Source: Escherichia phage SUT_E520. Taken from it: a stretch of 64,000 nt of DNA. The notes beneath the pieces were generated by a model, which was not told the DNA's origin, searched no databases, and was given only the letters and a program-made list of their open reading frames with translations. Positions 64-6,593 of the stretch are shown here, piece by piece. Where the stretch lies: sequence record OQ990040; one strand, given 5' to 3'. The translations under genes and the position numbers were made by a program. The first letter of the stretch is position 1; the number at the start of each line of letters is the position of its first letter.

Positions 64-2163
64 TTAGGTAAGGCGTTGAATTATAAGTTTAATATTTGGT
101 AAGCATGCTTTCATGCCAATTATATTGCTCATAGAGGATTCTAACCAAATAGAGATATTATTATTTCCATCATTTCTCATATAATATGTTAGAGTATAGT
201 AACCCGTTTGACCTACTGATCCCGGCAACCCAGATACCCAGTACGGAGTTGGAGTATACCCAGCAGCCTGTAATTTACAAGCATTTACTACAGTACCTTT
301 AATAGTAAAAAATGGTACATATTCTCCTGCAGGTAGGGACAATATTTGGTGAAGTTTTTTATCGATAGTATTGCCACCCATTCTGAACCTACTATCTCCA
401 TATTCGGCGCCTTTAGATAGCATTTCCGTAGGATTAAAGCAGCCAATACCTCCTGCAGACAACCATGTGTCATCCAGGAACTCCATAGTACATACAATTG
501 CGCCATTTCTACTACTATTAAGATCTAGTCCCACGGTGCCAACATGCACGGAACCATTACCCTGAAATACTATGTTACCAGATAGTACAGTACTTCCGCT
601 ACCACCTAGAAGTCTTAAAGGTAAAAGATTCTCACTCCAAACATCTCCATAATTGCTGCCTATTTTTGGAGGATTACTAGAAACATACCAAGATGCTGAA
701 GGTAAAAAGTTATAAATACTAACTACATTAGTATTTAAACCACCAACGTTACCACCNNNNNNNNNNNNNNNNNNNNNNNNNNNNNNNNNNNNNNNNNNNN
801 NNNNNNNNNNNNNNNNNNNNNNNNNNNNNNNNNNNNNNNNNNNNNNNNNNNNNNNNGAAACATACCAAGATGCTGAAGGTAAAAAGTTATAAATACTAAC
901 TACATTAGTATTTAAACCACCAACGTTACCACCTTTAATACTTGGTGCGTTATTGCTTTCCGTAGTGGGCAGCCCAAATGTTGCTATGCCAGAAACTCCA
1001 GTAGAGGGGGCACCCATACTCAAGTTACACCCAACATCACGAAAATCAGCTCTGCTACCTACATTAAAGTTTTTCTCAACAAAGTTAATAAACTTCCATG
1101 ACGTATTATTAACATTAACCCCTTTAATAATAAACTCTCTTGGGCTAAGTTTAATATCATTGCCAGTAAATAGCCCACTATCAATACTGTATCCTGAGCC
1201 ATTGTATACTAGATTGGTAACATACCAAGTAATTTTAGATGGATAAATACCGAGGTGCTCACTATATATACCTATAGGCCCATTAGCAGCATCATTCGGA
1301 TCACCCATACTTTCCCAATAAGCATAGTTAGTGGGATCAGCACGTGCGAAACCTACAGAGTACTTAGGAGCCGAGGGATTGCTAGGGTTATCTATAAAGT
1401 TAAGAGCCCCAGAACTAGAAGCACCGTGCACAGCTCCAGCAGTGGTATAGTTAGGCCCTTCCATACCGTAAAGAACTCTATTGCAAGATCTACCACGAAC
1501 ATATATGGCGTTAAATCCAAAGTTTCTAGCTCCGGGATGCCTAACGTAGTCGCTAGGGATAGTTATGGATCCTGAGCTGGGCACAATATATCCTGAACCA
1601 TCCCAGGCAGACTTATAAAGAGCGGCACCACCTAAGTACATTGCACTAGATGCAAATCCTCTACGCCCACTAAAGGCGCCAAACATATGCTGACATCCAG
1701 TACCATCTCTAAGCTTCTGGGGAATAGTTCCACTAGTTCCACTGTTAAAATAACCTACATCAAGGGATAGATCAGCACTAGCTGTTATTTGTGTTTTTAA
1801 GCCACCCTGGGACATGACCTGTGGATTTATAATTCCGTACGCCTTAGCACCTACCCCCATAGACATACCGGATAACATATGTCTAGAGCCATCTGAGAAC
1901 TCAATCTCCGTCAGCACAACTCTATTAGGATCATTATTATGTAACTGGGTAATTCTGCTAGGCATATCAGACCAGTAGTAATCTCCAGCACCTTGATCTA
2001 GCCTTAACCCTGTGGAGTGAGTTTCTGTTATGATAACATGGGGCATATCTGAATGGAATATGGTCTGAGAGTCAGGATTAATATGTTGATTAGTATCTCC
2101 GCCACTACCCCTGCGCAGAGAGAGTATAGATTTATTATTTAGCTTGCCAGCGAAAAAACTCAT
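64..2163 (-). CDS. oad: receptor-binding tail protein, pb5-like (FhuA-binding RBP); frame spans a 100-N scaffold gap with duplicated flanks, true length about 640 aa
   Basis: 699-aa ORF; N-terminus MSFFAGKLNNKSILSLRRGSGG and overall Gly/Ser/Asn-rich composition match my recollection of T5 pb5; divergently adjacent to an Llp-like lipoprotein gene as in T5; 33 X plus a repeated 27-aa stretch are a scaffolding artefact. Confidence 0.55.
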   Translation of the reverse strand: MSFFAGKLNNKSILSLRRGSGGDTNQHINPDSQTIFHSDMPHVIITETHSTGLRLDQGAGDYYWSDMPSRITQLHNNDPNRVVLTEIEFSDGSRHMLSGMSMGVGAKAYGIINPQVMSQGGLKTQITASADLSLDVGYFNSGTSGTIPQKLRDGTGCQHMFGAFSGRRGFASSAMYLGGAALYKSAWDGSGYIVPSSGSITIPSDYVRHPGARNFGFNAIYVRGRSCNRVLYGMEGPNYTTAGAVHGASSSGALNFIDNPSNPSAPKYSVGFARADPTNYAYWESMGDPNDAANGPIGIYSEHLGIYPSKITWYVTNLVYNGSGYSIDSGLFTGNDIKLSPREFIIKGVNVNNTSWKFINFVEKNFNVGSRADFRDVGCNLSMGAPSTGVSGIATFGLPTTESNNAPSIKGGNVGGLNTNVVSIYNFLPSASWYVXXXXXXXXXXXXXXXXXXXXXXXXXXXXXXXXXXGGNVGGLNTNVVSIYNFLPSASWYVSSNPPKIGSNYGDVWSENLLPLRLLGGSGSTVLSGNIVFQGNGSVHVGTVGLDLNSSRNGAIVCTMEFLDDTWLSAGGIGCFNPTEMLSKGAEYGDSRFRMGGNTIDKKLHQILSLPAGEYVPFFTIKGTVVNACKLQAAGYTPTPYWVSGLPGSVGQTGYYTLTYYMRNDGNNNISIWLESSMSNIIGMKACLPNIKLIIQRLT
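757..856. other. scaffold gap (100 N) with about 77-bp duplicated flanks (680-756 equals 857-933)
   Basis: run of n; identical sequence gaaacataccaagatgctgaagg...accaccaacgttaccacc on both sides. Confidence 0.95.
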
Positions 2164-2182
2164 AAGTTCTCCAAAAATTTAA

Positions 2183-2211
2183 TTGCCTATATTGCTATAA
2201 TTCTGTATAAT
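2183..2211 (+). promoter_or_regulatory. sigma70-type promoter upstream of llp (-35 TTGCCT, 17-bp spacer, -10 TATAAT)
   Basis: TTGCCT at 2183-2188, TATAAT at 2206-2211; AGGAGA RBS before ATG at 2243. Confidence 0.45.
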
Positions 2212-2242
2212 AGTATTATAAATTAAACATAGGAGAATGTAA

Positions 2243-2476
2243 ATGAAAAAATTATTTTTAGCTATGGCAGTGGTACTTCTTTCGGCTTGCTCTACTTTTG
2301 GTCCTAAAGATATTAAATGTGAGGCCTACTATGTACAAGATCATGTGAAATATAAGGCTAATGTTTTTGATAGGAAAGGGGATATGTTTTTGGTGTCACC
2401 AATTATGGCCTATGGGTCTTTTTGGGCTCCCGTAAGCTACTTTACTGAGGGGAATACATGTGAGGGAGTTTTCTAA
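2243..2476 (+). CDS. llp: lytic-conversion lipoprotein Llp-like (FhuA-blocking superinfection exclusion)
   Basis: 77 aa; signal peptide MKKLFLAMAVVLLSAC with lipobox LSAC; small Cys-containing mature part; divergent from oad as in T5. Confidence 0.65.
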   Translation: MKKLFLAMAVVLLSACSTFGPKDIKCEAYYVQDHVKYKANVFDRKGDMFLVSPIMAYGSFWAPVSYFTEGNTCEGVF

Positions 2477-2767
2477 GTAAAAACGACCTTAGTAACTATC
2501 ACCACTTAAGATAATCCTAGCGCAGAATTAGTCCAGGATGCCACACAAGACACTAGGGAAGGTATAATAAGAATATTTATACTAATCACTGCAATTGCTA
2601 GGGTATTCCAAATACCATACTCATAGGAGCATGAAAGATATGTCAAATAAAAGAAAGAACAGACGTGGAGAAGTGTACGAAGCGTGGGTTAATATTTACG
2701 GATTTGGTTTTGTATTATTCTTAATCTTCGTAGGTTTTTGGTTAGCAGCTATGGCGGGGTGGCTATA

Positions 2768-2923
2768 ATGGAATGGGTAATTATTGGCATATTCGTCTTA
2801 TTGATACTTCTCTTTGCAGGCTTACGTGTAATAGATACCTCTGTAACCCAAACAGAGATTAAATTAATGCAGTTGAGCAATAGATTATCTAGAATTGAAA
2901 CTTTATTAGAGGAGCGTAAATAA
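2768..2923 (+). CDS. small single-pass membrane protein, tandem paralog 1
   Basis: ATG at 2768; N-terminal TM helix MEWVIIGIFVLLILLFAGL followed by charged coiled-coil tail ending RIETLLEERK. Confidence 0.4.
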   Translation: MEWVIIGIFVLLILLFAGLRVIDTSVTQTEIKLMQLSNRLSRIETLLEERK

Positions 2924-3030
2924 TGGAATGGGTAATTATTGCACTACTGGGGATTGTGATTATTGGGCAATGTATCTTAGATAATCACTTAGCTAGAATC
3001 GAAACCTTACTATCGGAGAAACATAAATGA
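2923..3030 (+). CDS. small single-pass membrane protein, tandem paralog 2 (35 aa)
   Basis: ATG overlaps upstream stop (TAATG); MEWVIIALLGIVIIG...ARIETLLSEKHK shares N- and C-terminal motifs with paralog 1. Confidence 0.35.
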   Translation: MEWVIIALLGIVIIGQCILDNHLARIETLLSEKHK

Positions 3031-3221
3031 TGGAAGTGGCAATTACACTAATGGTAATATTAGTCTGGGTAATCCTCATTGTCTCTCGTATCGTGTATCT
3101 CCGCCTAAAAACTCTAGAAGCCCAGGTAAAACAACAACAAGTTATTCTAGAAAAGCTAGTACTACTGCAACGTTGTGATAGCACCCGTATTCTGCAAATT
3201 GAGAGGGAATTAGATGTTTAG
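3027..3221 (+). CDS. small single-pass membrane protein, tandem paralog 3
   Basis: ATGA start/stop overlap with paralog 2; TM helix then coiled-coil. Confidence 0.4.
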   Translation: MMEVAITLMVILVWVILIVSRIVYLRLKTLEAQVKQQQVILEKLVLLQRCDSTRILQIERELDV

Positions 3222-3459
3222 TATTATAATTGCTTTTATTATCGGGATACTCGCGGGAGTTTTCGGGACGACTGCGGCAATCAATAAGCATCGGGAATAT
3301 ATTGCGGGAGTGACGCGGGAGATTGCGGAAAGGGAGCGGAAGTTTGACGAGAAACGTGCGGAGTTTGAGCGAGAGTGGTCGGATGGATCTCGGGCGTCGC
3401 GGAAGAGATTCCGGGAGTTCAGACCAGAACACAGGTTTGATGACCCTTCTATGCGCTAA
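3214..3459 (+). CDS. small single-pass membrane protein, tandem paralog 4 (Arg/Glu-rich tail)
   Basis: overlaps paralog 3 stop; TM helix MFSIIIAFIIGILAGVFG then highly charged tail. Confidence 0.4.
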   Translation: MFSIIIAFIIGILAGVFGTTAAINKHREYIAGVTREIAERERKFDEKRAEFEREWSDGSRASRKRFREFRPEHRFDDPSMR

Positions 3460-3610
3460 TTCGACTTTTGTCAAATTTCATAAGATTACACATGGAGGTG
3501 TGTCCAGTGGCTCCCCAGATGAGAATGAGTCTCATTACCGCCCGGTACTTAGCAAGCTAATAGTCACGGCATGTTATCATTACACACCGTGACTATTTCA
3601 ACTTTAATTA

Positions 3611-4345
3611 TTACGCAACTTTTAATTTCTCAATATATTGTTGCGGGCTGCAACTATATTCTGCGCGTTCTTCCTCGGTCATACTTTCCCAACATAATTT
3701 CAAACGATCAGCTAGGAACTGATAATCATTATCATCATCGAGAGATTCATCGATAAAGGTTTCACCTATCAATGCAACGCCGATTGATAGAATATCGTTA
3801 ATGGCTTGCGCGTCCAGCGTTTTAAATCCGTATGATGCCGCCGCTGATAGCACGCCTTTATGATCGTCAATCATTGTAAAGTCAGCGTTTGGATATAATT
3901 GTTTAAATAATTCAAAATAATACGATTTATAAATGGCGTCTTTGCTGTGGTATATCTCGCTAACTTTATCAGCTTCAAAATATTTGTGTAGTGTATCGCG
4001 GGAAAATACACGGATATTACTATCACCACGACCGCGCAACCCTTGTTTACGCAAATAATAATAGTCCGACTTGCTCATTAGTCGAGCGGTGCAAATAATG
4101 TTTAAAGTATTTGCATCATTCATACATTGGCGCATATATTCAACCAATGGCAATAAAGTATCTTGCATTATTAAATGATGTTTGCAGGCTTCATTTTTAT
4201 ACTTATTTAAATCTAAATTGCCCTCACTATCAAAGCAAGGCGCTACACGATGGAAAGAATTAATGATAGTGCCGTCTAAATCCCAAATCATGACGCGGGA
4301 AATATGCGGGAAATTACGGGAAATATTCATAATAGCTTTATTCAT
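3611..4345 (-). CDS. dmp: HAD-family 5'-deoxyribonucleotidase, Dmp-like (pre-early)
   Basis: 244 aa; N-terminal HAD motif I IWDLDGTII; size and position match T5 dmp. Confidence 0.55.
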   Translation of the reverse strand: MNKAIMNISRNFPHISRVMIWDLDGTIINSFHRVAPCFDSEGNLDLNKYKNEACKHHLIMQDTLLPLVEYMRQCMNDANTLNIICTARLMSKSDYYYLRKQGLRGRGDSNIRVFSRDTLHKYFEADKVSEIYHSKDAIYKSYYFELFKQLYPNADFTMIDDHKGVLSAAASYGFKTLDAQAINDILSIGVALIGETFIDESLDDDNDYQFLADRLKLCWESMTEEERAEYSCSPQQYIEKLKVA

Positions 4346-4369: not shown

Positions 4370-4469
4370 NNNNNNNNNNNNNNNNNNNNNNNNNNNNNNN
4401 NNNNNNNNNNNNNNNNNNNNNNNNNNNNNNNNNNNNNNNNNNNNNNNNNNNNNNNNNNNNNNNNNNNNN
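4370..4469. other. scaffold gap (100 N)
   Basis: run of n. Confidence 0.95.
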
Positions 4470-4646: not shown

Positions 4647-5223
4647 GTTGATAACTTATCCCCAAAAGCAAAAATGAAATTTTCCTAGTTATCCACTTGA
4701 CTTTTATTTTCCAGTGGATAACTACTTATTTTATGAAATAAATTAATTGACTTTTATTTGTTAGTATGCATCGGAAAGATAGCAGACTAATAATTGCTAG
4801 AATGATAATCATGCTGGTGGATTGTAACGACCTGAATTATTAGCAGACTATTAATCACGGAAAAATCTCATTAGCCAACTAACTATTTCATGATATATAA
4901 TATACATATAAATTAATGAGAAATAATAACTATAAGAAATCATCTAGCTAAGTGAGAACCACTATCATTTAAGTTATACACAAAGTTATCCACAGCACTT
5001 TTTGACTTGACACGATAGGCGGCGNNNNNNNNNNNNNNNNNNNNNNNNNNNNNNNNNNNNNNNNNNNNNNNNNNNNNNNNNNNNNNNNNNNNNNNNNNNN
5101 NNNNNNNNNNNNNNNNNNNNNNNNTATACAGTAGGATAAGCTGTTGATAAGTCTGTTGATAACGCCTCAAAATGGCTAGGATTTTGTCAAGTCAAATCGT
5201 GCTGTTGATAAGTCTGTGGATAA
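4647..5223. promoter_or_regulatory. cluster of DnaA-box-like 9-mers (TTATCCACA and one-mismatch variants), both orientations
   Basis: perfect TTATCCACA at 4986-4994 and its reverse complement at 5215-5223; near-consensus boxes at 4647-4664, 4689-4697, 4713-4721, 5142-5150, 5154-5162, 5203-5211. Confidence 0.45.
5025..5124. other. scaffold gap (100 N)
   Basis: run of n. Confidence 0.95.
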
Positions 5224-5224: not shown

Positions 5225-5240
5225 TTAAATAATAGTGTTT

Positions 5241-5404
5241 CTCACTTCCATTCTTAAATACGAATCAGTATCATTCGCATTTCACTATCTAACTAATAAT
5301 CATTCCACTTTTTAAATGAGAATCGTTTCACTTCCTGAATAATTCTCACTTCCATTCTTAAATGCGAATTATTATCATTCACATTCCGCTTTTTAAATGA
5401 GAAT
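5241..5404. repeat. two families of direct repeats in an AT-rich noncoding segment
   Basis: ctcacttccattcttaaat(a/g)cgaat at 5241-5265 and 5345-5369; ctttttaaatgagaat at 5308-5323 and 5389-5404. Confidence 0.5.
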
Positions 5405-5433
5405 GATTCTCATTATCATTCGTATTCAGGCAA

Positions 5434-5451
5434 GCAGGGCAATTGCCCTGC
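5434..5451. repeat. 18-bp perfect palindrome gcagggcaattgccctgc
   Basis: self-complementary sequence directly upstream of the iteron array. Confidence 0.6.
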
Positions 5452-5456
5452 GCTTT

Positions 5457-6056
5457 TGTGCAAATCCGACATTTGCCCCCATGGATTACGCGTGGGCGTG
5501 TATGTGCGAATCCGACAATTTTTGGTAGTGTGCAAATCCGACCCGAAAAATTTTTATAATGTGCGGATCCGACAATGAATTTTCCTAAAAACTCCAGCAA
5601 TCCGATGCTGCGCATCAATCCTGTGGAATTAACTAGAATATGTGCAAATCCGACATGGGTTTATTTGTGCGAATCCGACAAGATTTTTGTGACTTCGATT
5701 GGAGAGTGTGTGATTGTAAGAGTTTGGGGAGAAGTTGAGAGATCGAGAAAAATTTGAGGGAACTGCGAGAGGGGCGCATGTTTGGTGCGTAGCACCTGAT
5801 TTGCGGGGATTTTGGGGAAGAGTTGAGAAGATTTGGGTTAATTTGAGATTAGTGCAGATAAAGTAAAATCTTATTAGCTAAATGGGGCAAAATAGCTTGA
5901 CAAGTGAAAGTTTCTGTGGCTCTAAAAACTCAGGCAATCATGGGCCTTCGGCCCGAAATAATGCTGCCATTTTCAAGAGATTATATGTTCCTAAAAACTT
6001 AGGCAATTGTGCAAATCCGACCATAAATTTCTAGAAACACAATGTGCAAATCCGAC
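5457..6056. repeat. iteron array: 8 copies of 14-bp TGTGC(A/G)(A/G)ATCCGAC
   Basis: copies at 5457, 5502, 5529, 5559, 5641, 5666, 6008 and 6043, irregular spacing, same orientation. Confidence 0.7.
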
Positions 6057-6100
6057 AGTAATTTCTGGAAATGTGTTTTCAAAAAATGTCTCCTAGAAAT

Positions 6101-6173
6101 AACCGCCCTCCCCATAACCGCCCTGTATTAAACCGCCTAGTATATGTTCCTAGAAACTTAGGAGAACCGCCCT
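6101..6173. repeat. four copies of AACCGCC(C)T
   Basis: copies at 6101, 6116, 6131 and 6165. Confidence 0.5.
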
Positions 6174-6593
6174 AGAAAGAGTGAGTATTTCGTGAGAACT
6201 CTGGAGTTTCTAGGAAAGTGTTGTGCCATCCTAGCAGATGAGCGGCAACAGGTGTATCATCTTGAATGTAAATTATGTGGTCAAAAGTTTTACTTTTATT
6301 TTAAATATAAGATCCCCCAGGGTTCTCATATAGAGCTTTGCCCCCGCCAGAAGGTCTCGTGATGTTTCTAGCAATTTATATTAAATTACTTATTAACTTG
6401 TCCTGTCGCTCCGTATCCTCCGCTACAAGTTAGTAATTTTAAATTACTGAACCACCACACCTTCTGTGTGGCAACTCTAAATGGTTAATTCTATTAACTC
6501 ATAGAGTTATGATAACATACATTTAGCTATCTGTCAACGAGAGTTTGTATTTGAGTCTCGGTACAGGTATTGTGCACCGAGACATGCAGGATC

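What the first reader, a model, noticed from the sequence alone, without database searches (positions are those of the whole stretch)
2768..3459. Tandem array of four small TM plus coiled-coil paralogs between llp and dmp
Four consecutive, translationally coupled genes (TAATG and ATGA overlaps) each encode an N-terminal TM helix and a charged helical tail; two share MEWVII and RIETLL motifs. The location next to the lytic-conversion gene llp suggests a diversifying family of membrane-acting factors such as exclusion or takeover peptides.
Basis: partly seen in the sequence, partly recalled or inferred. Interest (0 to 1): 0.45.

Follow-up and report, generated by a model that had tools for sequence, protein, structure and literature searches.

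The report
T5 small membrane-protein operon after llp
This is the already catalogued cluster of tiny one-helix membrane proteins that follows the receptor-blocking gene llp in phage T5 and its relatives; the genes are real, conserved and dispensable in the lab, and their function is still unknown.

Summary
The window is a T5-like coliphage, 100% identical to Escherichia phage SUT_E420/SUT_E1520. The four ORFs exist as described, but the cluster has five genes. An upstream 42-aa gene (A, 2640-2768) is joined to the first reported ORF by the same TAATG overlap.

The genes match T5 orf1-orf4 (T5.159-T5.162, sequenced in 1994). The window also carries an extra 51-aa gene (B), a paralog of T5.160 (C), bounded by perfect 22-nt direct repeats.

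Only B and C are demonstrable paralogs. D and E share the build (N-terminal membrane helix plus helical charged tail) but show no detectable homology to them.

All are under purifying selection (dN/dS 0.12-0.30; other-frame controls 0.35-2.2). "Diversifying" is therefore not supported. What varies is gene content: A and E occur in about 440 phage records, D in 193 and B in 36.

Published RNA-seq on a relative shows transcription after second-step DNA transfer, at levels like the llp analogue, and none when only pre-early genes are expressed. A published T5 knock-down screen scored all four T5 genes "Not Fit".

No family, structure or defence library gives a function. My best inference, at low confidence, is an accessory inner-membrane complex co-expressed with Llp, possibly giving receptor-independent exclusion. 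Novelty is low.

The parts
2183..2211 (+). Sigma-70-type promoter upstream of llp (TTGCCT-17-TATAAT); likely promoter of the whole llp-A-B-C-D-E unit
   Evidence: 10/12 match. It lies 32 nt before the llp ATG, the same distance as the annotated llp promoter in T5 X75922 and NC_005859. No other promoter is annotated in T5 between this one and the right terminal repeat.
2243..2476 (+). llp, the lytic-conversion / receptor-blocking lipoprotein (context gene, not a member of the small-protein set)
   Evidence: 99% identical to T5 Llp. Matches phrog_1119, Cor superinfection exclusion protein, E 5.5e-19.
2640..2768 (+). Basic N-tail (MSNKRKNRRGE) followed by a C-terminal TM helix carrying a G32xxxA36xxxG40 small-residue motif. 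Orthologue of T5.159 / orf1.
   Evidence: phrog_8596, E 4e-30. dN/dS 0.12. Found in 441 phage records. TM position and charges.
2768..2923 (+). Gene B, 51 aa: N-terminal TM plus heptad tail. An extra paralog of gene C carrying a 16-aa insertion. Absent from T5 itself.
   Evidence: hhalign B versus C probability 95%. phrog_6369, E 1e-16. Present in only 36 phage records. Annotated as a hypothetical protein in SUT_E420 and Bas31. Transcribed in Bas33 at about 150 TPM.
2765..2786 (+). First copy of a perfect 22-nt direct repeat (ATAATGGAATGGGTAATTATTG), at the A/B junction
   Evidence: The repeat spacing of 155 nt matches the B cassette, consistent with gain or loss of B by recombination between the repeated gene starts (inference).
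2920..2941 (+). Second copy of the 22-nt direct repeat, at the B/C junction
2923..3030 (+). Gene C, 35 aa: N-terminal TM plus a short tail with the invariant motif GQC.LD.HLAR.E. Orthologue of T5.160 / orf2.
   Evidence: phrog_6369, E 2e-25. dN/dS 0.12. Found in 310 records by blastn, including the partly detected Epseptimavirus variant ending RIERKLR.
3027..3221 (+). Gene D, 64 aa (63 aa if started at 3030): N-terminal TM plus a tail of about 6 heptads ending in the invariant IERELDV. Orthologue of T5.161 / orf3.
   Evidence: phrog_5851, E 2e-30. AF2 single helix 2-63, pLDDT 94. dN/dS is 0.23 in the tail and 0.56 in the TM. Present in 193 records and absent from most Epseptimavirus-type loci. 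About 435 TPM in Bas33.
3214..3459 (+). Gene E, 81 aa: N-terminal TM with invariant G11xxxG15xxG18, then an E/R/K-rich amphipathic helix and a variable C-terminal end. Orthologue of T5.162 / orf4.
   Evidence: phrog_6447 'membrane protein', E 2e-47. AF2 helix 2-69. Hydrophobic moment p=0.005. Found in 443 records. The family occurs only in T5-like contigs, even in an exhaustive HMM search of 1.84 billion representatives.
3559..3597 (.). Inverted repeat (19-nt arms) between the convergent gene E and dmp; candidate bidirectional terminator that closes the operon
   Evidence: It forms the dominant hairpin in RNA folds of both strands (z -2.3 and -3.8). It corresponds to the repeat_region annotated in T5 X75922. 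By analogy with T5, it lies inside the terminal repeat, which starts 42 nt after the E stop codon.

Best explanation
The region is a conserved accessory operon of T5-like phages (Markadamsvirinae). It encodes five mini-proteins of 35-81 aa. Each is essentially one alpha-helix with a membrane anchor and a soluble helical tail.

Shown or strongly supported:
- The genes are real and under purifying selection.
- They are orthologues of T5 orf1-4 (T5.159-T5.162), plus one extra paralog (B) of T5.160.
- They are tightly translationally coupled.
- They follow the receptor-blocking lipoprotein gene on the same strand, with no terminator-like structure in between.
- In a relative they are transcribed after second-step DNA transfer, at a level similar to the lipoprotein gene.
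- Knock-down in T5 gives no fitness defect.

Inferred:
- B-E insert with the N-terminus out and the tail in the cytoplasm. No K/R precedes the TM and K/R follow it. This is clear for D and E and weak for B and C.
- A is tail-anchored, with its polybasic N-tail in the cytoplasm.
- Overlapping stop/start codons suggest the proteins are made together. Strict conservation of small-xxx-small motifs in the TM helices of A and E suggests they assemble into a homo- or hetero-oligomeric inner-membrane complex. A, C and E would be the core, with D and B as optional subunits.

Most likely role (low confidence, about 0.3 for this step): like Llp, the complex protects the infected cell or the progeny from other phages. 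It would act at the inner membrane in a receptor-independent way, for example by blocking DNA translocation by superinfecting T5-like phages. This would explain why the cluster stays constant while the RBP/lipoprotein module is swapped between receptors.
For: Identity and synteny with T5.
Coding status: dN/dS 0.12-0.30 against 0.35-2.2 in other frames.
Overlapping junctions and Shine-Dalgarno sequences.
Architecture.
Invariant G11/G15/G18 in E. Conserved GFWLAAMAGW in A.
Transcription unit: no stable structure or terminator between llp and A (fold z -0.35), and a strong hairpin after E. Conservation begins only about 45 nt upstream of A, with no consensus promoter.
Bas33 RNA-seq at 20 min: lipoprotein gene about 170 TPM, B about 150, D about 435, and all zero when only pre-early genes are expressed (PMC13250531 Dataset S1).
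Dispensability: T5.159-T5.162 and llp are all 'Not Fit' in CRISPRi-ART (PMC11879866 source data). Natural isolates occur with truncated, frameshifted or internally deleted E and without D or B.
Independence from llp type: the cluster follows llp or non-homologous lipoprotein genes alike.
Positional analogue: Klebsiella Sugarlandvirus P5010 has two genes of the same architecture at the same position, without detectable homology.
Against: No experiment or homology links any of the five proteins to exclusion or to any other function. Pfam, NCBIfam, PADLOC, PHROG annotations and PDB sequence searches are all uninformative.

Topology rests only on the positive-inside rule and is weak for B and C, whose flanks have net charge -1. 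Complex formation is inferred from gene organisation, not shown.

The CRISPRi-ART T5 screen also scored several virion genes 'Not Fit', so its negative result is weak evidence of dispensability.

Bas33 read counts are very uneven across the cluster (A and C about 1 TPM, E about 18 TPM). This may be a counting artefact for short overlapping features, but it could also mean the genes are not expressed stoichiometrically.

Proximity to llp is guilt by association. More distant T5-like phages of Proteus and Vibrio lack such genes at this position.
Confidence: 0.55

Rival explanations
1. The proteins modulate host envelope or physiology rather than excluding phages. They would bind and inhibit or re-tune a host inner-membrane machine through TM-TM contacts, in the manner of bacterial regulatory mini-proteins. 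Candidate targets include FtsH/LapB, the divisome, TonB-ExbBD and transporters. An alternative version is that they block a membrane-acting abortive-infection effector (anti-defence).
For: The TM helices of A and C are as constrained as their tails (dN/dS 0.09-0.13), and small-xxx-small motifs are invariant. This is typical of specific helix-helix binding. The genes are early or middle, non-essential and accessory. E has weak sub-threshold resemblance to LapA_dom (E 5.6e-4, 20.2 bits against a cutoff of 28) and to FtsL (E 0.022). All known receptors of these phages are TonB-dependent transporters (own knowledge; BASEL and BF23 papers).
Against: The Pfam and NCBIfam matches are below threshold and of the TM-plus-charged-helix type that arises by composition. 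An exhaustive profile search found no bridging relatives. There are no PADLOC hits. No toxicity or host phenotype has been reported.
Confidence: 0.2
2. The proteins are membrane tethers for phage DNA or the replication/packaging machinery, analogous to phi29 p16.7 and p1. Cytoplasmic coiled-coil tails and basic segments (the KRKNRR N-tail of A, SRASRKRFR in E) would recruit nucleic acid or phage proteins to the inner membrane.
For: Architecture of an N-terminal TM, a coiled coil and a basic patch. Predicted cytoplasmic orientation. Expression after second-step transfer. T5 first-step DNA and the A1 protein are described as membrane-associated (bioRxiv 866236).
Against: There is no DNA-binding domain; the tails are 17-60 aa single helices. 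The genes are dispensable and D and B are often missing. The position next to the exclusion gene, not in the replication module, argues against it.
Confidence: 0.08
3. The proteins are lysis-related: holin/antiholin-like timers, a spanin-like system working with the lipoprotein Llp, or a single-gene-lysis-type peptide.
For: A small TM protein with a charged C-tail is the classic holin or phiX174 E build. An outer-membrane lipoprotein gene (llp) lies adjacent, as in spanin pairs. There is a weak PHROG holin hit for B (E 0.54).
Against: T5-like phages already have a lysis cassette elsewhere with holin, endolysin and i-/o-spanins (PMC4342426, PMC6256483). In T5, lys is at about 20 kb. Llp has a solved, different function: it blocks FhuA from the periplasm (PMC9586334). 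The tails are predicted cytoplasmic and are too short (17-60 aa) to span the periplasm. The PHROG holin hit is not significant.
Confidence: 0.05
4. The proteins are virion or tail-assembly proteins, as many database records label the D and E homologues ('tail assembly protein', 'tail fiber protein').
For: GenBank and UniRef names on D and E homologues. The genes sit next to the receptor-binding tail protein gene.
Against: PHROG lists D as unknown function. The T5 RefSeq record and the CRISPRi-ART re-annotation say hypothetical or unknown. The genes are on the opposite strand to the late tail genes and in the llp (early) unit. None of the cluster's products is among the 18 proteins detected in the BF23 virion, where the RBP is ORF170 and the D homologue is BF23_00174. 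They are hydrophobic single-TM peptides.
Confidence: 0.02

Closest known systems
Phage T5 orf1-orf4 downstream of llp (X75922, Decker et al. 1994) = T5.159, T5.160, T5.161, T5.162; PHROGs 8596, 6369, 5851, 6447
   Same: Same genes, same order, same overlaps and same flanks (oad-llp upstream, dmp/terminal repeat downstream). Amino-acid identity to T5 is 74% (A), 91% (C), 75% (D) and 86% (E).
   Different: The window has one extra gene (B), a paralog of T5.160 with a 16-aa insertion. About 36 database phages share it, for example Bas31 and Bas33. No function is known for any member.
T4 Imm and Sp (small early membrane proteins giving superinfection immunity); HK97 gp15
   Same: Small, early or middle-expressed, non-essential membrane proteins of a virulent or temperate phage that act at the envelope. 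They are co-located with or complementary to another exclusion function. This is the working analogy for the proposed role (own knowledge).
   Different: No sequence similarity: no PHROG, Pfam or PDB match. The topology and size differ. No exclusion phenotype has been tested for the T5 cluster.
Phi29 p16.7 / p1 (early membrane-anchored coiled-coil proteins organising phage DNA replication)
   Same: An N-terminal TM anchor followed by a cytoplasmic coiled coil; early expression (own knowledge).
   Different: p16.7 has a C-terminal DNA-binding domain that is absent here. The T5 proteins are much shorter and dispensable.
Two-component spanins (Rz/Rz1) and holins
   Same: A TM plus helical or charged segment next to a lipoprotein gene; small size.
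   Different: The predicted orientation is opposite and the tails are too short. The genes lie outside the lysis cassette, which already contains holin, endolysin and spanins. The adjacent lipoprotein Llp is a receptor blocker.
Klebsiella Sugarlandvirus P5010: two genes between the RBP gene and dmp (74 aa MEVVIGALILL..., 153 aa MTIVLIFTTFFF...)
   Same: Same genomic position, same strand logic and same build (N-terminal TM, K/R after it, long helical tail).
   Different: Homology is not detectable: hhalign probability 24% against D and under 1% against E. There are two genes rather than three to five.

Membership tests
T5 orf1-4 / T5.159-T5.162 families (PHROG 8596, 6369, 5851, 6447) | Significant full-length sequence match to the family profiles | tested here: met
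   E-values are 4e-30 (A), 1e-16 (B), 2e-25 (C), 2e-30 (D) and 2e-47 (E), each covering the whole profile. Identity to the T5 proteins is 74-91%.
T5 orf1-4 / T5.159-T5.162 families (PHROG 8596, 6369, 5851, 6447) | Conserved synteny: same strand and order between the receptor-blocking lipoprotein gene and dmp/terminal repeat, with overlapping stop/start codons | tested here: met
   (T5, 26 IMG/VR loci, Bas31).
   hhalign gives B-C 95%, C-D 13% and B-D 7%. The genes fall in four different PHROGs.
Diversifying (positively selected or hypervariable) gene family | dN/dS near or above 1, or hypervariable sequence among relatives | tested here: not met
   dN/dS is 0.12-0.30 for whole genes, with a maximum of 0.56 in the D TM segment. 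B is 91-100% identical in 36 records.
Two-component spanin (i-spanin) | N-in/C-out topology with a periplasmic coiled-coil domain long enough to reach the outer membrane (about 100 aa or more) | tested here: not met
   No K/R precedes the TM and K/R follow it, so the tail is predicted cytoplasmic. The tails are 17-60 aa.
Two-component spanin (i-spanin) | Location in or next to the lysis cassette, with a cognate o-spanin lipoprotein | tested here: not met
   The lysis cassette with spanins is reported elsewhere in T5-like genomes, and T5 lys lies at about 20 kb. The adjacent lipoprotein is Llp, the FhuA blocker (PMC9586334).
Holin | Small TM protein with a charged C-terminus, encoded with the endolysin and expressed late, causing membrane permeabilisation | tested here: inconclusive
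   The build is compatible. However, the genes are not near the endolysin and lie in the llp unit, and the only PHROG holin hit has E 0.54. Permeabilisation is not testable here.
Bacterial/phage lipoprotein (Llp/Cor type) | Signal peptide with a lipobox [LVI][ASTVI][GAS]C | tested here: not met
   None of the A-E sequences contains a lipobox. The only N-terminal-region Cys, in C, sits in the context IGQC, with Q at position -1 (direct reading).
LapA_dom (PF06305) | Score at or above the Pfam gathering threshold | tested here: not met
   E scores 20.2 bits against a cutoff of 28. The exhaustive E-profile search returns only T5-like proteins.
Superinfection-exclusion inner-membrane proteins (T4 Imm-like; defined by function) | Expression alone blocks DNA entry of a superinfecting phage | not testable with these tools
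   This needs plating and DNA-entry assays. There is no sequence relation to Imm, Sp or other annotated exclusion PHROGs.
Virion / tail assembly protein (database label) | Presence in virions, or homology to known tail chaperones | tested here: not met
   Not among the 18 BF23 virion proteins. No family match.

The most novel reading that the evidence does not exclude
The five mini-proteins assemble through their glycine-zipper TM helices and cytoplasmic heptad tails into one hetero-oligomeric inner-membrane complex. That complex would be a new, receptor-independent type of superinfection immunity for T5-like phages. It might jam the inner-membrane step of DNA delivery (the pb2 channel or second-step transfer), or it might disable the TonB-ExbBD energiser shared by all their receptors. 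This would explain why the cluster is invariant while the RBP/lipoprotein modules are exchanged.
Probability: 0.15. Interest if true: 0.6.

Novelty: already known. Interest (0 to 1): 0.27.

Why it matters
T5 is a model phage, and this cluster is present in more than 440 sequenced relatives, many of them phage-therapy or biocontrol candidates. Thirty years after it was first sequenced it is still annotated as unknown.

If the cluster proves to be an inner-membrane immunity or host-modulating complex, it would add a second layer to the well-understood Llp/FhuA exclusion system. It would also provide a compact example of phage mini-proteins acting through transmembrane helix contacts.

As it stands, the finding adds no new kind of element. 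It re-discovers annotated hypothetical genes. The present analysis mainly corrects the gene count, the paralogy claim and the selection regime.

Tried and rejected
- Family and structure libraries. Pfam, NCBIfam and PADLOC scans of all five proteins gave nothing above threshold. A PDB sequence search with the E profile gave only chance coiled-coil or TM hits, the best at E 0.026.
- Remote homology. The exhaustive HMM search with the E profile found 5 clusters, all T5-like. Word-indexed searches with E, the D profile and A found only T5-like contigs.
- RNA elements. An Rfam scan of 2100-3700 gave no match. Folding the llp-A spacer showed no structure beyond shuffles.
- C' origin. I tested whether the Epseptimavirus C variant (C') is a C-D fusion left by deletion of D. 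Codon-level comparison shows it is simply a diverged orthologue.
- B origin. I tested whether B is a chimera of C and D. The B-D profile match is only 7%.
- Distant T5-like phages. Proteus Novosibvirus and Vibrio phages have no comparable genes at this position.
- Literature. Searches for T5.159-T5.162, protein accessions, PHROG ids and T5 membrane/exclusion terms found no functional study.
- Errors. Searches returned input errors and gave no data.
- Not attempted. Multimer structure prediction was not possible with the tools, and fold searches were skipped because single helices give meaningless matches.
Full report
**Identity of the window.** The stretch 2200-3650 is 100% identical to Escherichia phage SUT_E420 and SUT_E1520 (Tequintavirus) and about 87% identical to phage T5. 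In T5 the same place is annotated as follows. The oad gene (pb5) runs leftward. Divergent promoters follow, then llp (T5.158). Next come four small genes, T5.159, T5.160, T5.161 and T5.162, each noted as 'contains single transmembrane domain'. The right terminal repeat starts 42 nt after T5.162, and its first gene is dmp on the other strand. The 1994 entry X75922 (Decker et al.) already lists these as orf1-orf4. SUT_E420 annotates five hypothetical proteins here.

**Check of the observation.** The junctions read from the sequence are TAATG (B/C), ATGA (C/D) and an 8-nt overlap (D/E). A fifth gene, A (2640-2768, 42 aa), was missed. It has an AGGAG Shine-Dalgarno sequence 10 nt upstream and its stop codon overlaps the B start in another TAATG. 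A is the orthologue of T5.159, C of T5.160, D of T5.161 and E of T5.162. B has no counterpart in T5.

**Are these real genes?** I collected 26 related loci from IMG/VR plus T5 and extracted the orthologues. The table gives pooled Nei-Gojobori dN/dS in the annotated frame.

| Gene | dN/dS | Distinct sequences |
|---|---|---|
| A | 0.12 | 22 |
| C | 0.12 | 18 |
| D | 0.30 | 16 |
| E | 0.24 | 25 |
| B | 0.22 | 4 |

The same alignments read in the other two sense frames and in the three antisense frames (antisense for D and E only) give 0.35-2.2. The 110-aa antisense ORF over E is therefore a by-product of E's codon composition.

**Paralogy.**
- Profile-profile comparison shows that B and C are paralogs (probability 95%, E 2e-8). 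B equals C plus a 16-residue insertion in the tail.
- C versus D (13%) and B versus D (7%) are not detectably related.
- A, B/C, D and E fall in four separate PHROG families.
- The B cassette is bounded by a perfect 22-nt direct repeat, ATAATGGAATGGGTAATTATTG, at 2765 and 2920, with spacing of 155 nt. This is the footprint expected if B is gained or lost by recombination between the identical gene starts (inference).

**Distribution and copy number.** Blastn of each gene against 50,697 phage records gave the counts below.

| Gene | Phage records with a match |
|---|---|
| A | 441 |
| E | 443 |
| C | 310 |
| D | 193 |
| B | 36 |

- The C count is an underestimate, because the diverged Epseptimavirus form is only partly detected.
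- Three layouts occur: A-C-D-E (T5 type), A-B-C-D-E (this window, Bas31, Bas33 and others) and A-C'-E (mostly Epseptimavirus).
- One C'-type locus (L027) keeps a D that is only 40% identical, so D is old and has been lost repeatedly.
- E is truncated, frameshifted or internally deleted in a few isolates. Its last about 14 residues come in at least five alternative versions.
- The E family is confined to T5-like contigs, even in an exhaustive HMM search of 1.84 billion representatives, which returned 5 clusters. The listed hits for D (best 120 of 270) and all hits for A point to the same restriction.
- The variation is therefore in gene presence or absence, not in sequence diversification.

**Architecture.**
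- B-E each start with a hydrophobic stretch of about 19 residues. No K/R precedes it and K/R follow it. This is clear for D and E and weak for B and C. By the positive-inside rule this predicts N-out/C-in with cytoplasmic tails.
- A is the reverse: a polybasic N-tail (KRKNRR) and a C-terminal TM, that is, tail-anchored.
- AlphaFold2 models D as one helix (residues 2-63, pLDDT 94) and E as one helix (residues 2-69, pLDDT 74) with a floppy end.
- The tails of B, C and D have L/I/V/M/F at 75-80% of a/d heptad positions, against 29-41% overall.
- The E tail is an E/R/K-rich amphipathic helix (moment p = 0.005), with I30, I37, F44 and F51 spaced seven residues apart.
- The E TM carries invariant G11xxxG15xxG18. 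The A TM carries the conserved GFWLAAMAGW. Both are small-xxx-small motifs typical of helix-helix packing (established knowledge).
- In D and E the tail is more constrained than the TM (dN/dS 0.23 versus 0.56 and 0.18 versus 0.41). In A and C both parts are tightly constrained (0.09-0.16).

**Transcription context.**
- A good sigma-70 promoter lies 32 nt before llp, exactly as annotated in T5.
- The 163-nt llp-A spacer has no terminator-like site and no fold beyond shuffled controls (z -0.35).
- After E there is a strong hairpin (3559-3597, 19-nt arms; z -2.3 and -3.8 on the two strands). It also sits after the convergent dmp and matches the repeat annotated in X75922.
- Among relatives with different upstream genes, sequence conservation starts only about 45 nt before A and contains the ribosome-binding site but no consensus promoter.
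- Published RNA-seq of the relative Bas33, which has the five-gene layout (bas33_0191 to bas33_0187), was taken 20 min after infection. The lipoprotein gene gave 127-219 TPM, B 137-162, D 408-462 and E 13-22.
- A and C gave about 1 TPM. Both are shorter than 130 nt and overlap their neighbours, so this is probably a counting artefact.
- All had 0-1 reads with daunorubicin, a condition in which only pre-early genes are expressed, while dmp stayed high (PMC13250531 Dataset S1).
- The cluster is therefore not pre-early. It is most simply part of the llp transcription unit, which Decker et al. describe as early (title cited).

**Experimental dispensability.** The transcriptome-wide CRISPRi-ART screen of T5 lists T5.159, T5.160, T5.161 and T5.162 as 'Not Fit'. 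Scores are -3.6 to -4.1 and KS p values are 0.24-0.91. The same holds for llp. The paper's re-annotation calls the first three 'unknown function' and T5.162 'membrane protein' (PMC11879866 source data). Several virion genes were also 'Not Fit' in that screen, so the result is only weak evidence. It does agree with the natural loss of D, B and intact E.

**Function.** No library gives a lead.
- Pfam's best match is LapA_dom for E at 20.2 bits, below the cutoff of 28. NCBIfam's best is FtsL at E 0.022. PADLOC gives nothing and the PDB search only chance hits.
- The label 'tail assembly protein', widely attached to D homologues, is unsupported. The BF23 virion proteome of 18 proteins contains the RBP (ORF170) but none of the neighbouring small products.
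- A lysis role is unlikely, because T5-like phages have a separate cassette with holin, endolysin and both spanins. The tails are also short and predicted cytoplasmic.
- What remains is inference from organisation. The genes are tightly coupled and have co-conserved TM motifs. They lie downstream of and are probably co-transcribed with the exclusion gene, are dispensable in monoculture, and stay constant while the RBP/lipoprotein module is exchanged.
- This fits best an accessory inner-membrane complex. My preferred role is receptor-independent protection against superinfection. Host-membrane modulation or anti-defence is the main rival, and a phi29 p16.7-like tether a minor one.
- In Klebsiella Sugarlandvirus P5010 the same position holds two genes with the same build (74 and 153 aa) but no detectable homology. 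This suggests the architecture, rather than the sequence, is what is kept. T5-like phages of Proteus and Vibrio lack such genes there.

**Verdict.** There are five genes, not four, and two paralogs, not four. The element is an already annotated, functionally uncharacterised gene cluster of a model phage. Novelty is low and interest is modest.

Noticed in passing
window 757-856, 4370-4469, 5025-5124: There are three runs of exactly 100 N. The first lies inside the pb5/oad homologue (64-2163, minus strand) and is flanked by an exact 77-nt duplication. As a result the 699-aa ORF equals the 640-aa pb5 plus 34 X plus 25 duplicated residues. This looks like a scaffold-gap artefact of the source assembly. 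That gene is not annotated in SUT_E420.
   Followed up: partly
window 5240-6460: This is a large non-coding region full of repeats. It has at least 9 copies of TGTGC(A/G)AATCCGACA, five copies of a 23-nt unit, a 67-nt duplication, and 17-nt inverted repeats 323 and 603 nt apart. It matches the long untranslated repeat region of the T5 terminal repeat that has been discussed as the injection-stop-signal region (bioRxiv 866236; PMC6256483 mentions a 1,587-bp non-coding region typical of T5-like phages).
   Followed up: partly
window 3415-3459 (C-terminal end of gene E) and relatives L013, L016, L024, L027: After the conserved ...SRKRFR, the last 5-15 residues of E exist in at least five unrelated versions (EFRPEHRFDDPSMR, MSESGDKPVDRRSS, KINGKS, AKVSDEE, ADSVSSPK). 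This variable end lies just before the junction with the terminal repeat or inserted genes. In-frame deletions of 7 and 17 residues occur in the tail.
   Followed up: partly
relatives of window 3027-3459 in GenBank/UniRef: Many records name the D and E homologues 'tail assembly protein' or 'tail fiber protein', and EC100-type records name llp 'lysozyme'. These labels have no support from homology or from the BF23 virion proteome and look like propagated annotation errors.
   Followed up: yes
Bas33 homologues bas33_0187-0191 (PMC13250531 Dataset S1): Read counts differ widely between adjacent, overlapping genes of the cluster: A 2 reads, B 479, C 1, D 1704, E 104 in replicate 1. The very short A and C genes are probably under-counted. 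The 20-fold drop from D to E is unexplained.
   Followed up: no
L031 (Klebsiella phage P5010) 4868-5557, minus strand of the locus: Two genes lie between the RBP gene and dmp. They have the same build (N-terminal TM plus long helical tail) as the T5 cluster but no detectable homology. The 153-aa product ends in a long Ser/Gly-rich, probably disordered tail.
   Followed up: partly
L034 (Klebsiella phage 150049, Epseptimavirus) 2231-2545 and 2964-3179: The gene A orthologue is not annotated in this record. A 104-aa ORF is called across it instead. An extra 71-aa soluble acidic ORF overlaps the end of E by 4 nt, so the operon can be extended downstream in some lineages.
   Followed up: no
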